Shown piece after piece: positions 2,151 to 5,681 of a stretch of 64,000 nt of DNA; the stretch's first letter is position 1, and every line of letters starts with the position of its first letter. The notes under the pieces are model-generated. The model did not search any database and had not been told where the DNA came from. It saw only the letters and a list, made by a program, of their open reading frames with translations. The position numbers and the translations under genes were made by a program. Location: positions 5,836 through 69,835 of the forward strand of contig JAXDBM010000070.1 in the NCBI GenBank assembly GCA_034678725.1, written 5' to 3'. The DNA is from Syntrophales bacterium. GTDB lineage: Bacteria; Desulfobacterota; Syntrophia; Syntrophales; Fen-1087.

Positions 2151-2528
2151 TCAATCGACGGGATCGAACCAGAGATCGCATTGATAATGGATGGTCAGCT
2201 CCTGATCTTTGTGAATGGACCGGATTGCCCGGAAGATCATGACCTGGTTTTTGAGATCCGCCTCGAAGGAAAGATTCGGCGTTTCGGAGAAATTGTACAG
2301 GCTGCCGTACCCCAGAACCAGGGCAAAATGGGATTCACCCCACTTGAAATAGTAATCCGCAATCGCCGTTTTATCAATCCAGTCGATGTCTTCATCCGGT
2401 ATGACGATCACCGGCGCCGCTTCGACGATTGCGCCCTTGCGTATCGGATTCGCCGCGAAGACGCCCCGACCCTTCTCCGCGGCGCTTTTGATGCAGATAT
2501 TCTTGTACAATAAGTGTTTCCGGTTCAT
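2151..2528 (-). CDS. SET-domain protein (putative protein-lysine methyltransferase)
   Basis: KGRGVFA (motif I), GYGSLYNFSETPN (NHS-type motif III variant), ELTIHY (motif IV). Confidence 0.88.
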   Translation of the reverse strand: MNRKHLLYKNICIKSAAEKGRGVFAANPIRKGAIVEAAPVIVIPDEDIDWIDKTAIADYYFKWGESHFALVLGYGSLYNFSETPNLSFEADLKNQVMIFRAIRSIHKDQELTIHYQCDLWFDPVD

Positions 2529-2544: not shown

Positions 2545-3948
2545 CTATCGGCCCCGCCAGCAGTACAGGCAGAGCTGGCCCTCCGACAGGCCGATGGCCG
2601 CGATCATGTCCTCGATGTTCAGGTACTTCAGGGATGTGACGTTCAGGTCCCGGCGGATCCATTCGACCATGTTGCGGTACTTTTCGGAACGGTGGTCCAG
2701 GTATTCCAAAATGTCGTCGATATCCGCACCCTCGATGGCCCGAATGGCCCTCCGGCAGGCCAGTTCGGATTTCGAGCGCGTCGAAGAGGCGAACACGCAG
2801 GGGAACATGAGGGGGGGACAGGCGGGCCGGACATGGATCTCGCGGGCGCCGTTGTCCATGAGCTTCTTGATGGTGTAGTTCTTGAGCTGCGTCCCGCGGA
2901 CGATGGAATCGTCGCAGATCACCATGCGGCTGCCGTTGATGACGCCGCGGACGGCGCTGAGCTTCATGGTCGCGACGAGGTCCCGAATGTCCTGTGAAGG
3001 CGGCGTGTAGCTCCGGCCGTAACCCGGTGTGTATTTGACCAGCGGCCGCCGGTAGGGGATGCCCGACTCGATGGCGTACCCGATGGCGTGCCCCACGCCG
3101 GAATCGGGAATCCCGGCGACGAAATCGGCCGCGACGTCGTCGTTGCGGGCTATGGCCCGGCCGCAGCGCTCCCGCGCGCTTTCGACCGGAATGCCCTCGT
3201 AAACGGATGAGGGATATCCCGTGTAGATCCACAGGAAGGCGCATACGTGCTTCTCCGGGTTTTCCGGCTTGAGATTCTTCAGGCCCGACAGGGAGAGTAG
3301 CGTGATCTCCCCCGGACCCAGATGCTTCACCAGTTCATAGCCGAGATTCGGGAAGGCGCTCACTTCGGTTGCGACGGCGAAGCCCCCGCCCCGGTCGCCG
3401 CTTTTTTCCCCGATGGAAAGGGGGAAGCGGCCGTATTTGTCCCGCGCGGCGTAGACGCCCTCCGCTGTCATGACCAGCGCGCAGATGGACCCCTCGATGG
3501 CGTCCTGCATTCGGACAATCCCGTCCATGATCGAATCGCCCTGGTTGATCAGTTTGGCGACCATTTCGACGGTGTTGATCCCGCCGCCGGTCATCTCGCT
3601 GAAGGAGGATCCCTTGTCCATCAGGTCTTTCGTCAACCGGTCCTTGTTGGTGATCAGGCCCGTGGCGGCCAGGGCGAAGGTGCCGAACTTGGACCGCACG
3701 ATGAGGGGCTGGGGGGCGTCATCGTCGATGGCCCCGATCCCCTGATAGCCGCGCATTTCCTTGTAATCGTCGACAAAGCGGGATTTGAACTGGGCCTGGC
3801 TGATGCTGTGAATGGTGTTGTAGAATCCCTGATCCCCGTACACGGCCATGCCGCCGTTTTCCGTGCCCAGGTGGGAATGGTAATCCGTTCCGTAAAAAAG
3901 CGTTTTCGAACAGTCCTGACGAGAGACGACACCGAACAAACCGCCCAT
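2545..3948 (-). CDS. purF: Amidophosphoribosyltransferase-like protein (variant lacking N-terminal Cys)
   Basis: ARDKYGRFPL, PDSG, YGRSY, DDSIVRGT PRPP-binding loop, CPP..FPC and C-terminal CLYC Fe-S cysteines; N-terminus MGGLFG. Confidence 0.92.
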   Translation of the reverse strand: MGGLFGVVSRQDCSKTLFYGTDYHSHLGTENGGMAVYGDQGFYNTIHSISQAQFKSRFVDDYKEMRGYQGIGAIDDDAPQPLIVRSKFGTFALAATGLITNKDRLTKDLMDKGSSFSEMTGGGINTVEMVAKLINQGDSIMDGIVRMQDAIEGSICALVMTAEGVYAARDKYGRFPLSIGEKSGDRGGGFAVATEVSAFPNLGYELVKHLGPGEITLLSLSGLKNLKPENPEKHVCAFLWIYTGYPSSVYEGIPVESARERCGRAIARNDDVAADFVAGIPDSGVGHAIGYAIESGIPYRRPLVKYTPGYGRSYTPPSQDIRDLVATMKLSAVRGVINGSRMVICDDSIVRGTQLKNYTIKKLMDNGAREIHVRPACPPLMFPCVFASSTRSKSELACRRAIRAIEGADIDDILEYLDHRSEKYRNMVEWIRRDLNVTSLKYLNIEDMIAAIGLSEGQLCLYCWRGR

Positions 3949-3993
3949 AGGCTCCTCACTGAATGCGTTCCATAATCGAAAGCGTGTTTTTCC

Positions 3994-5187
3994 TCATGCG
4001 AGCTTCATCACCGCATCCCGGATCCGGTCCAGGCCCTTTTCGATCTGGGCCATCGATGTGGCGTAGGACAGGCGGATGTGGTCGTCATGGCCGAACTCCC
4101 CGCCCGGGATGACGGCGACATTGGCCTCGTCGAGGAGCCAGGCCGCCACATCGGCGGATGAAGCCAGGACCTTTCCGCCGTGCTTGCGCCCCAAAAGCCC
4201 GGCAATCGAGGGAAAGACGTAGAAGGCGCCCTGCGGGACCATGCAGAAGATCCCCGGGATCGCGTTCAGCCTTTCCACGATGATGTTTCTTCTCTTCTGG
4301 AATTCCCGGACCATTTCGCCGACGATGGACTGGTCTCCGTTCAGGGCCTCCACGGAGGCCTTCTGGGCAATGGAATTCGGGTTCGACGTGTTCTGGCTCT
4401 GCAGCTTCGTGACGGCGGCAATGATCTCCGCCGGTCCGGCGGCATAGCCGATCCGCCACCCCGTCATGGCGTGGGACTTGGACAGACCGTTGACCACGAC
4501 GGTCCGTTCCTTCATGGCGGGATCGACGGAAGCCACGTTGGCAAAGGGCAGGCCGTCATAGAGGATCTTCTCGTAGATGTCGTCGGAGATGGCCAGCACC
4601 TGTTTTCGAAGGATCACGCCGGCCAGCTTTTCCAGCTCGGCGGGGCTGTAGGCCACGCCGCTCGGGTTGGAAGGGCTGTTGAGGATCACGGCGCGGGTGC
4701 GCTCATTGATGGCCGCCTCCAGACTTTCAGGCCGGATCTTGAATCCCTCCGCGGCTTTCGTTTCCAGAATGACGGCCCTCGCGCCGGTCAGGACCACGAT
4801 GTCGGGGTAGGAGACCCAGTAGGGAGAGGGGACGATCACCTCGTCTCCCTCCTCAAAGAGGACCTGGGCGAGGTTGTAAAGGGTGTGCTTAGCGCCGCAG
4901 GACACGCAGATCTGGCCGCGGGCGTAGTCCAGTCCATTGTCCCGCTTCAGCTTTCCGATGATGGCGTCCTTCAGCTCATCGATGCCTCCCACGGGTGTGT
5001 ACTTCGTGAAACCGTCACCGATCGCTTGAACAGCCGCCCGCTTGACATGATCCGGCGTATCGAAGTCGGGCTCGCCGGCCCCGAAGCCGACAATGTCGCG
5101 GCCCTCCGCCCGCAGCGAATTGGCTTTCATGGTAATCGCCAGGGTGGGCGATGGCTTGATGCGGTTGATGCGCGCCGTCAATCTCAT
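3994..5187 (-). CDS. Pyridoxal-phosphate-dependent aminotransferase class I/II (aspartate aminotransferase-like)
   Basis: GAGEPDFDTP, NSPSNPSG, SDDIY, GLSKSHAMTGWRIG (PLP lysine), GAFYVF; start at 5187 preferred for RBS spacing (5196 alternative). Confidence 0.95.
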   Translation of the reverse strand: MRLTARINRIKPSPTLAITMKANSLRAEGRDIVGFGAGEPDFDTPDHVKRAAVQAIGDGFTKYTPVGGIDELKDAIIGKLKRDNGLDYARGQICVSCGAKHTLYNLAQVLFEEGDEVIVPSPYWVSYPDIVVLTGARAVILETKAAEGFKIRPESLEAAINERTRAVILNSPSNPSGVAYSPAELEKLAGVILRKQVLAISDDIYEKILYDGLPFANVASVDPAMKERTVVVNGLSKSHAMTGWRIGYAAGPAEIIAAVTKLQSQNTSNPNSIAQKASVEALNGDQSIVGEMVREFQKRRNIIVERLNAIPGIFCMVPQGAFYVFPSIAGLLGRKHGGKVLASSADVAAWLLDEANVAVIPGGEFGHDDHIRLSYATSMAQIEKGLDRIRDAVMKLA

Positions 5188-5192
5188 ACGTT

Positions 5193-5681
5193 TCATTCCT
5201 TCGCTTTTCCAAATAATTGCTGAAGCCTTTCATTGACCAGGTCAGGCACCAGCCCCTGGACCGATCCGCCGAGGCTGGCGGCCTCCTTGATCAGGTTCGA
5301 ACTGGTATAGAACCACTGATAGCCCGTCATCAGAAAAACGGTTTCGACATCCCGGTTCAGGCGCCGGTTGATCAGGGCCATCTGAAATTCGTACTCGAAA
5401 TCCGAAACGGCCCGCAGGCCTCTGAGAATCACGTTGGCGCCCTTGCCTTTGACATAGTCCACCAGCAGGCCCGATGAGCAGTCGACGCGGACGTTGTTCC
5501 CTTTCAGGCATTTGCGAACGAGATCCATCCTCTCCTCAACAGAGAAAAGTGAGGACTTGTTGGGGTTGTAGGCCACCAGGATGATCATTTCATCGAACAT
5601 TCGAAGACCGCGCGTGATGATGTCGATATGTCCGTTGGTGATGGGGTCAAAGGAACCGGGATAAACCGCTATCTTTTTCAT
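5193..5681 (-). CDS. coaD: Pantetheine-phosphate adenylyltransferase
   Basis: MKKIAVYPGSFDPITNGH, RGLRAVSDFEYE, SS..IKE motifs. Confidence 0.97.
   Translation of the reverse strand: MKKIAVYPGSFDPITNGHIDIITRGLRMFDEMIILVAYNPNKSSLFSVEERMDLVRKCLKGNNVRVDCSSGLLVDYVKGKGANVILRGLRAVSDFEYEFQMALINRRLNRDVETVFLMTGYQWFYTSSNLIKEAASLGGSVQGLVPDLVNERLQQLFGKAKE

What the first reader, a model, noticed from the sequence alone, without database searches (positions are those of the whole stretch)
2545..3948. PurF with an entirely degenerate glutaminase site: probable ammonia-dependent enzyme
Seen: N-terminus MGGLFG (no Cys1 nucleophile); HSHLGTE instead of QHRGQE; GIGAID instead of GHxRYxT; ATGLI instead of HNGNL. 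The PRPP loop DDSIVRGT and the Fe-S cysteines are intact. Established: Ntn amidotransferases need Cys1 and the Asn-Gly oxyanion hole to hydrolyse glutamine; similar MGG(F/L)FG variants are annotated in other anaerobes but are little characterised. Inference: the enzyme uses free NH3 (plausible in ammonium-rich anaerobic habitats) or needs a separate glutaminase partner.
Basis: partly seen in the sequence, partly recalled or inferred. Interest (0 to 1): 0.55.

Follow-up and report, generated by a model that had tools for sequence, protein, structure and literature searches.

The report
Glutaminase-less PurF paralog, probably ammonia-dependent
This gene encodes a well-conserved second copy of the first purine-biosynthesis enzyme (PurF) that cannot split glutamine but keeps its sugar-phosphate site intact; relatives in other bacteria sit in purine operons and are sometimes the only PurF present, so it most likely makes the same product from free ammonia.

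Summary
Gly replaces Cys1. The Arg73/Tyr74 loop is deleted (8 residues). The oxyanion Asn and Asp127 are replaced. The PRPP loop, PPi loop, flexible-loop Lys/Arg and all four Fe-S cysteines are intact.

It is not a decaying gene. dN/dS is 0.04-0.07 in both halves. It belongs to one well-supported Cys-less clade (SH-aLRT 100) found in Desulfobacterota and Omnitrophota genomes, with look-alike clusters in Bacteroidota, Bacillota and methanogens.

This genome also has a canonical Cys1 purF next to carB, so the window gene is a paralog.

Relatives sit in purine operons: purL-LOG-(purQ)-paralog-(purF)-purM-purD-purE. In 8 of 43 paralog-bearing Omnitrophota genomes no canonical purF is found, and 7 of those 8 keep purD. 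purQ and purS tend to be missing from the same genomes.

Best reading: a glutaminase-less PRPP amidotransferase that makes phosphoribosylamine from ammonia. This is inferred, not assayed. The sole-PurF evidence comes from Ser-type members, whereas the window protein has Gly.

The same paralog was noted by first readers in 113 other genomes of this scan. I found no published characterisation of the bacterial clade; the closest is the untested archaeal PurF' proposal.

The parts
2545..3948 (-). PurF-like paralog, 467 aa: Ntn-type N-domain without a nucleophile, plus an intact type I PRTase domain
   Evidence: AF2 model pLDDT 93.5. Foldseek TM 0.84-0.86 to B. subtilis PurF 1ao0.
3952..3957 (-). 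Shine-Dalgarno GAGGAG, 3 nt before the ATG
   Evidence: An in-frame stop lies 15 codons upstream and there is no Cys upstream.
3943..3945 (-). Gly2 codon at the position of the Cys1 nucleophile
   Evidence: Gly in 117 of 117 readable Syntrophales homologs. G/S/T/A across the clade.
3859..3885 (-). DYHSHLGTE (residues 22-30), the clade signature that replaces LQHRGQE
   Evidence: Y23 and H26 are at least 93% conserved.
3718..3741 (-). GIGAIDDD (residues 70-77), the site of the 8-residue deletion that removes the RYSTxG loop (E. coli Arg73/Tyr74)
   Evidence: Alignment with insert columns shown.
3646..3666 (-). ATGLITN (residues 95-101), replacing HNGNLxN; the oxyanion Asn is replaced by Thr
3241..3243 (-). 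Cys236, an Fe-S ligand (equivalent to B. subtilis C236)
   Evidence: alignment. Invariant in the clade.
3097..3105 (-). PPi loop D282-S283-G284
   Evidence: At least 93% conserved in the clade.
2962..3036 (-). PRTase flexible loop K305-K329 (K305, R312, S313, Q319, R322 and K329 conserved). GRSYT replaces the canonical GRTFI.
2887..2913 (-). PRPP loop DDSIVRGTQ (residues 346-354). The Gln354 signature is shared with the Cys1-bearing sister group; standard PurF has RGTT.
2797..2799 (-). Cys384, an Fe-S ligand
2560..2571 (-). C460-L-Y-C463, the C-terminal Fe-S ligands
3994..5196 (-). Context: class I/II (aspartate-type) aminotransferase, 45 nt upstream. An optional neighbour within Syntrophales.
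2151..2528 (-). Context: SET-domain protein, 16 nt downstream. An optional neighbour.

Best explanation
The gene encodes a glutaminase-less member of the PurF (PRPP amidotransferase) superfamily. It keeps the two-domain PurF fold, a complete PRPP/PRTase catalytic site and the [4Fe-4S] ligands. It has lost the N-terminal nucleophile and every glutamine-binding element.

It most likely converts PRPP to 5-phosphoribosylamine using ammonia that its own N-domain does not produce, most simply free NH3. In this Syntrophales genome it would work alongside the canonical glutamine-dependent PurF.

Shown:
- sequence anatomy
- predicted fold
- purifying selection
- clade membership
- purine-operon context in relatives
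- its persistence as the only PurF homolog found in some genomes

Inferred:
- the reaction
- the nitrogen donor
- the physiological rationale, namely saving the ATP spent on glutamine synthesis in ammonium-rich, energy-poor anaerobic niches
For: 1. Catalytic anatomy. Conserved across 58 clade members are the PRPP loop, the PPi loop, flexible-loop K305/R312/K329 and all four Fe-S Cys. The model has pLDDT 93.5 and superimposes on B. subtilis PurF at TM 0.84-0.86.

2. Selection. dN/dS is 0.042-0.074 for the N half and 0.053-0.065 for the C half. Identity is 53-61% between Syntrophales and Omnitrophota.

3. Context in relatives.
- purM is adjacent or overlapping in 4 loci, guaA in 3 and carB in 8.
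- Verified operons: purL-LOG-purQ-paralog-purF and purL-LOG-paralog-purM-purD-purE.

4. Sole PurF. In 8 of 43 paralog-bearing Omnitrophota genomes no canonical purF is found, against about 3 of 58 paralog-less genomes.
- 7 of the 8 keep purD above its cut-off.
- In G347 (a 646-kb contig) and G325 the operon is contiguous and simply lacks purQ and purF.
- In G287 and G319 the syntenic purF slot after guaA is empty on N-free contigs.

5. Co-loss of glutamine-handling parts.
- purQ is not found in 13 of 43 paralog-bearing genomes against 2 of 58 others.
- 9 genomes lack both purQ and canonical purF.
- purS is not found in G347, G325 or G317.

6. Established knowledge. E. coli PurF Cys1 mutants lose glutamine-dependent activity but still use NH3 (Mei and Zalkin 1989, as cited in PMC3261824).
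Against: - No biochemical data exist for any member.
- The genomes in which the clade is the only PurF carry Ser at position 2. The window protein and all Syntrophales orthologs carry Gly, so function is transferred within the clade.
- In the window's own phylum the paralog almost always co-occurs with canonical purF (44 of about 47). The three exceptions are 90-95% complete and keep purQ.
- The window gene is not in a purine operon. It lies in rsmD-coaD-aspAT-paralog-SET-ispG-proS.
- Co-transcription with canonical purF in several lineages is unexpected for condition-specific isozymes.
- Channel-lining Phe/Ile of the flexible loop are Tyr/Thr here, so the route for ammonia must differ from PurF's.
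- The Omnitrophota genomes are MAGs of at least 85% completeness, and related genomes are not independent observations.
Confidence: 0.6

Rival explanations
1. The protein is catalytically competent at the PRTase site but receives nitrogen from a separate partner protein (a stand-alone glutaminase or other ammonia-generating enzyme) docked on the remodelled N-domain, not from free ammonia.
For: - The N-domain is as constrained as the PRTase domain, more than a mere scaffold might need.
- Conserved unexplained neighbours exist: a TIGR00730 LOG-family gene in the Omnitrophota pur operons and DUF1846 immediately upstream in G275, G287, G319 and L127.
Against: - No partner is conserved across phyla. 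The immediate neighbours are heterogeneous (129 Pfam families among 142 flanking genes).
- Neither LOG nor DUF1846 lies next to the window gene.
- PurQ and PurS loss in the same genomes points away from glutamine use in general.
Confidence: 0.12
2. The protein is mainly a non-catalytic or regulatory subunit that forms hetero-oligomers with canonical PurF (a 'prozyme' or sensor of PRPP/nucleotides), in the way HisZ serves HisG.
For: - It is adjacent to canonical purF and co-directional in L130, L135, G311 and G345, and lies in the same cluster in L113, L116 and L121.
- It nearly always co-occurs with canonical purF in Desulfobacterota.
- Crenarchaeal purF/purF' pairs are likewise adjacent (PMC3261824).
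Against: - It persists without any canonical purF in 8 Omnitrophota genomes that keep the pathway.
- Every PRTase catalytic element is conserved, which a pure regulator would not need.
Confidence: 0.12
3. The PRTase site transfers the phosphoribosyl group to a nucleophile other than ammonia. This would give a different product, in purine metabolism or elsewhere.
For: - The 8-residue loop deletion and the polar Tyr/Thr in place of channel-lining Phe/Ile could open a larger polar pocket at the domain interface.
- The window context is not a purine operon, and an aminotransferase sits upstream.
Against: - The clade occupies the purF slot in pur operons and is the only PurF homolog where purD, which consumes phosphoribosylamine, is retained.
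- The aminotransferase neighbour is optional even within Syntrophales.
Confidence: 0.08
4. The gene is a decaying, functionless purF duplicate.
For: Loss of all glutaminase residues, and a sub-threshold TIGR01134 score.
Against: - dN/dS is 0.04-0.07 in both halves.
- Identity is 53-61% across phyla.
- It forms a single well-supported clade with its own conserved motifs.
- The ORF is intact with a strong SD.
Confidence: 0.01

Closest known systems
Bacillus subtilis-type glutamine PRPP amidotransferase PurF (PDB 1ao0/1gph; TIGR01134)
   Same: Two-domain fold (TM 0.84-0.86), PRPP loop, PPi loop, flexible loop, four [4Fe-4S] cysteines, and purine-operon context in relatives.
   Different: - No Cys1.
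- The Arg73/Tyr74 loop is deleted.
- The oxyanion Asn and Asp127 are replaced.
- The PRPP loop ends in Gln, not Thr.
- 210 bits against a 350-bit cut-off.
E. coli PurF Cys1 mutants (Mei and Zalkin 1989, as cited in PMC3261824)
   Same: No glutamine-dependent activity while NH3-dependent phosphoribosylamine synthesis remains. This is the biochemical precedent for the proposed mechanism.
   Different: Those are laboratory point mutants with the rest of the glutamine site and channel intact. Here a natural clade has remodelled the whole site and is under purifying selection.
Crenarchaeal PurF' (Brown et al. 2011, PMC3261824)
   Same: A Cys-less PurF paralog that co-occurs with, and lies adjacent to, a canonical purF near other pur genes. 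It was proposed, but not tested, to be an ammonia-dependent PRPP aminotransferase.
   Different: PurF' is archaeal, with Ala/Val at position 1. Orthology with the bacterial DYHSHLGT clade was not tested here. The tree shows that Cys loss has arisen several times in the superfamily.
Cys1-bearing 'intermediate' PurF group (NCGVFGIY...LQHRGQEYCG)
   Same: Shares the 8-residue loop deletion, loss of the Asp127 equivalent, the RGTQ PRPP loop and carB adjacency. It is the closest Cys-containing relative, at 36-39% identity.
   Different: It keeps Cys1 and QHRGQ, and it falls on the canonical side of the tree.

Membership tests
PurF, glutamine PRPP amidotransferase (TIGR01134 equivalog) | Score at or above the curated equivalog cut-off (350 bits) | tested here: not met
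   210.5 bits. The genome's other copy scores 511.8 bits.
PurF, glutamine PRPP amidotransferase (TIGR01134 equivalog) | N-terminal Cys nucleophile (Ntn, class II amidotransferase) | tested here: not met
   Gly2 aligns to Cys1. There is no upstream in-frame Cys.
PurF, glutamine PRPP amidotransferase (TIGR01134 equivalog) | Glutamine-binding and oxyanion residues (Arg73/Tyr74 loop, Asn101-Gly102, Asp127; E. coli numbering) | tested here: not met
   The loop is deleted, Asn is replaced by Thr96, and Asp is replaced by Thr.
PurF, glutamine PRPP amidotransferase (TIGR01134 equivalog) | Type I PRTase catalytic elements (PRPP loop, PPi loop, flexible-loop Lys/Arg) | tested here: met
   D347, S348, R351, G352, T353, D282-S283-G284, K305, R312 and K329 are conserved.
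PurF, glutamine PRPP amidotransferase (TIGR01134 equivalog) | Two-domain PurF fold | tested here: met
   pLDDT 93.5. TM 0.84-0.86 to 1ao0, E 9.8e-42.
PurF, glutamine PRPP amidotransferase (TIGR01134 equivalog) | Catalyses phosphoribosylamine formation from PRPP | not testable with these tools
   Only indirect support: purine-operon context, and sole PurF homolog in genomes that keep purD.
B. subtilis-type [4Fe-4S] PurF subgroup | Four cluster-ligand cysteines at conserved positions | tested here: met
   C236, C384, C460 and C463.
Cys-less 'DYHSHLGT' PurF paralog clade (defined here) | Placement inside the clade, plus its signature: M-[GSTA]-G-x-x-G, DYHSHLGT, the 8-residue deletion and RGTQ | tested here: met
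   Clade of 58 rows, SH-aLRT 100, with no Cys at position 1. Motifs.
Crenarchaeal PurF' (Brown et al. 2011) | Orthology with the archaeal PurF' cluster | not tested
   No PurF' sequence was available by reference. Only the shared phenotype (Cys-less, accompanies purF) is known.

The most novel reading that the evidence does not exclude
The clade marks a wholly glutamine-independent, ammonia-driven version of the first half of purine biosynthesis, with a glutaminase-less PurF and PurL working without PurQ/PurS. Its strongly conserved, remodelled N-domain would not be a passive scaffold. It would be a new functional site: an ammonia-capture or gating site, or a docking site for a new nitrogen-donor partner such as the co-operonic LOG-family or DUF1846 protein.
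Probability: 0.2. Interest if true: 0.8.

Novelty: new variant of a known kind. Interest (0 to 1): 0.6.

Why it matters
PurF is the committed and textbook glutamine-dependent step of purine synthesis. A large, cross-phylum clade of anaerobes carries a PurF that cannot use glutamine, and some lineages appear to rely on it alone while also lacking PurQ and PurS. That would mean purine synthesis can run directly on ammonia, bypassing glutamine synthetase's ATP cost.

This matters in three ways:
- Energy budgets of syntrophs and ultra-small Omnitrophota.
- Genome annotation: all these genes are currently labelled simply 'amidophosphoribosyltransferase', so metabolic models assume glutamine use.
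- How Ntn amidotransferases evolve once the glutaminase is dispensable.

It also makes the 2011 archaeal PurF' hypothesis directly testable with a bacterial counterpart.

Tried and rejected
Distribution there rests on cluster names and the Atlas only.
- **The aminotransferase upstream as a functional partner.** Rejected, because it is absent from about a third of syntenic Syntrophales loci.
- **carB adjacency as evidence of a CarB-specific role.** Downgraded. The genome's canonical purF and the Cys1 intermediate group also sit next to carB, so it may reflect shared ancestry or co-regulation of nucleotide genes.
- **Gly-type Desulfobacterota genomes without canonical purF** (G139, G203, G229). 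Uninformative: they are 90-95% complete and keep purQ and purM.
- **Ser at position 2 as a residual Ntn nucleophile.** Rejected for the window protein, which has Gly. Unlikely for the clade, because Gly and Ser interchange and the glutamine-binding elements are gone.
- **Riboswitch or other RNA element upstream.** None found. The promoter/terminator scan was no better than shuffles.
- **Literature.** Five searches found no characterisation of the bacterial clade.
- **Not attempted.** No multimer prediction tool was available to test hetero-oligomerisation. Model coordinates were not exposed, so pocket geometry could not be measured.

Full report
**Observation**

The ORF at 2545-3948 lies on the minus strand and encodes 467 aa starting MGGLFG. 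The start is sound. GAGGAG sits 3 nt upstream, an in-frame stop lies 15 codons upstream, and no Cys or alternative start lies between them.

The protein aligns end to end with B. subtilis PurF (1ao0, E 2.5e-57):
- Gly2 occupies the Cys1 position.
- HSHLGTE replaces QHRGQE.
- ATGLI replaces HNGNL, so the oxyanion Asn becomes Thr.
- The Asp127 equivalent is Thr.

A multiple alignment that keeps insert columns shows that 'GIGAID' is not a substituted GHxRYxT. An 8-residue deletion removes the whole RYSTxG loop, which carries Arg73/Tyr74 in E. coli numbering.

The PRPP loop, the PPi loop and the four Fe-S cysteines (C236, C384, C460, C463) are present. The protein scores 210.5 bits against the purF equivalog TIGR01134, whose cut-off is 350. 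Pfam sees only the GATase_7 domain.

**A paralog, not the PurF**

The window's genome is a Syntrophales/Syntrophaceae MAG of 2.56 Mb and 100% completeness. It carries a canonical purF on another contig. That copy scores 511.8 bits, has a propeptide ending in Cys, and has QHRGQE, GHVRYST and HNGNL. It lies directly downstream of carB.

**Not decaying**

Against close orthologs, dN/dS is 0.042-0.074 for codons 1-230 and 0.053-0.065 for codons 231-467. Across 58 diverse clade members the N-domain is nearly as conserved as the PRTase domain (mean top-residue frequency 0.547 against 0.597).

Positions conserved at 93% or more include K305, R312, S313, Q319, R322, K329, D282-S283-G284, D347-S348, V350-R351-G352-T353-Q354 and all four Fe-S cysteines.

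An AlphaFold2 model built on a 40-sequence family alignment has pLDDT 93.5 and pTM 0.91. It superimposes on B. subtilis, Arabidopsis and E. coli PurF at TM about 0.83-0.86.

**The family**

An exhaustive search of 1.84 billion representatives returns 8,086 hits. The best full-length ones all start M-[GSTA]-G-x-x-G and carry GTDYHSHLGT.

In a 99-sequence ML tree these proteins form one clade of 58 rows (SH-aLRT 100) with no Cys at position 1: G 25, S 23, T 3, A 2 and others. Further Cys-less lineages arise separately on the canonical side of the tree.

Three groups share the 8-residue deletion and an RGTQ PRPP loop:
- this Cys-less clade
- a Cys1-bearing 'intermediate' group
- a third 'MAGLFGLS' group

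Members or look-alikes occur in Syntrophales, other Desulfobacterota, Omnitrophota, Muribaculaceae/Bacteroidota, Bacillota and Methanobacteriota.

Position 2 is Gly in all 117 readable Syntrophales homologs. It is Ser in the Omnitrophota members.

**Context**

In Syntrophales the order rsmD-coaD-(aspAT)-paralog-(SET)-ispG-proS is conserved. The aminotransferase and SET genes are optional.

I tallied the immediate neighbours over 75 loci from the phylum and from metagenomes. They are heterogeneous, but the recurrent ones are nucleotide-biosynthesis genes:

| Neighbour | Loci | Notes |
|---|---|---|
| carB | 8 | always co-directional, gaps 24-123 bp |
| purM | 4 | overlapping in two loci |
| guaA | 3 | |
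| TIGR00730 LOG-family gene | 2 | |

Verified operons:
- purF-purM-paralog (L116, L121; L113 has one extra ORF between purF and purM)
- purL-LOG-purQ-paralog-purF (L130)
- purL-LOG-paralog-purM-purD-purE (L119, L134)

**Co-occurrence**

In 251 genomes of the window's phylum, a clear ortholog (over 450 bits) is present in about 47. Of these, 44 also have a canonical purF above the cut-off. The three exceptions are 90-95% complete and keep purQ and purM.

In 101 Omnitrophota genomes (at least 85% complete) the paralog is present in 43, at 53-61% identity to the window protein. Eight of those 43 have no canonical purF: G281, G287, G306, G317, G319, G325, G335 and G347. Among the 58 paralog-less genomes about 3 lack one, and those carry other non-canonical types or a fragment at a contig end. 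purD is above its cut-off in 7 of the 8.

| Genomes | Canonical purF in genome? | Layout |
|---|---|---|
| G311, G345 | yes | purL-LOG-purQ-paralog-purF-purM-...-purD-purE |
| G347 (646-kb contig), G325 | none found | purL-LOG-paralog-purM-...-purD-purE |
| G275 | yes | carB-DUF1846-paralog-mnmG-like-guaA-purF |
| G287, G319 | none found | same block as G275 on N-free sequence, with no purF after guaA |

purQ is not found in 15 of the 101 genomes. Thirteen of those 15 carry the paralog, and nine lack both purQ and canonical purF. purS is not found in G347, G325 or G317, whereas it is fused to PurL in G311 and G345.

**Interpretation**

The PRTase site is intact. The clade sits where purF sits, and it can be the only PurF homolog found in genomes that keep PurD, the consumer of phosphoribosylamine. 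The simplest reading is that it makes phosphoribosylamine from PRPP.

It has no nucleophile and no glutamine-binding residues, and the glutamine-handling PurQ and PurS tend to be missing from the same genomes. The nitrogen donor is therefore most likely ammonia. This matches the established fact that E. coli PurF Cys1 mutants keep NH3-dependent activity (cited in PMC3261824).

In the window's genome the protein would be a second, glutamine-independent route beside canonical PurF. The physiological rationale is inference: it would save the glutamine-synthetase ATP in ammonium-rich, energy-limited syntrophic niches.

**Limits**

- Nothing has been assayed.
- The sole-PurF evidence comes from Ser-type members, while the window protein is Gly-type.
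- The genomes are MAGs, and related genomes are not independent observations.
- The window gene itself is not in a purine operon.
- A partner nitrogen donor, or hetero-oligomerisation with canonical PurF, is not excluded. The frequent purF-paralog adjacency hints at the latter.
- Tyr/Thr replace the channel-lining Phe/Ile of the flexible loop. Together with the loop deletion, this means ammonia must reach PRPP by a different path than in PurF.

**Novelty**

Five literature searches found no study of the bacterial clade. The nearest precedent is the crenarchaeal PurF' of Brown et al. 2011, for which ammonia dependence was proposed but not tested. Orthology with PurF' was not tested here.

First readers of this scan flagged the same paralog in 113 other genomes. 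Those notes are unverified and describe the same motifs.

Noticed in passing
L119:4965-5621, L130:6534-7223, L134:7286-7972; also L180 (G347), L181 (G325), L188 (G311), L189 (G345): A TIGR00730 LOG/PpnN-family (nucleotide phosphoribohydrolase-like) gene is a fixed member of the Omnitrophota purine operon. It sits between purL and purQ or the paralog. Its role in a biosynthetic pur operon is unexplained.
   Followed up: partly
L185:5493-7028, L187:5580-7127, L190:5109-6695, L127:895-2415: A DUF1846 (PF08903 / PRK13663 'hypothetical protein', about 510 aa) gene lies immediately upstream of the paralog and co-directional with it, in a carB-DUF1846-paralog block. It is a possible functional partner.
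   Followed up: partly
L088-L093 (G198, G107, G100, G142, G138, G069); also G033, G172, G131, G255: A Cys1-bearing PurF subgroup (NCGVFGIY...LQHRGQEYCG) shares the 8-residue RYSTxG-loop deletion, lacks the Asp127 equivalent and has an RGTQ PRPP loop. It scores below the TIGR01134 cut-off, usually lies next to carB, and is the best PurF hit in a few genomes. How it binds glutamine without Arg73/Asp127 is unclear.
   Followed up: partly
P0216, P0220, P0228, P0237, P0238, P0252, P0254: A separate Cys-less lineage (MAGLFGLS...FYQQHLGEE; one member is named from Patescibacteria) branches on the canonical side of the tree. Loss of the PurF nucleophile has therefore happened more than once.
   Followed up: partly
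window 2151-2528 (-): A 125-aa SET-domain protein lies 16 nt downstream of the paralog. It is present only in the closest Syntrophales relatives (L004, L006, L024, L033). Another first-reader note covers it.
   Followed up: no
L071:15041-16048, and equivalents in L074 and L089: An NrpR-type (archaeal nitrogen repressor family) regulator gene recurs near the carB-paralog or carB-purF pair in three Desulfobacterota loci.
   Followed up: no
L130:3670-6558; G311:C2 and G345:C5 (open frames of 972-987 aa): PurL in one Omnitrophota operon type carries an N-terminal extension with weak PurS similarity (a PurS-PurL fusion). The purQ-less operon type has a plain 748-aa PurL.
   Followed up: partly
G325:C99:9527-10819: purD in G325 has one in-frame TAG inside an otherwise full-length match above the cut-off. 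This could be a sequencing error, a pseudogene or recoding.
   Followed up: no
G000:C42:1024-1752: The window genome's own purQ-like gene scores 157.7 bits, below the TIGR01737 cut-off of 177.8. G252 and G139 show similar sub-threshold scores.
   Followed up: no
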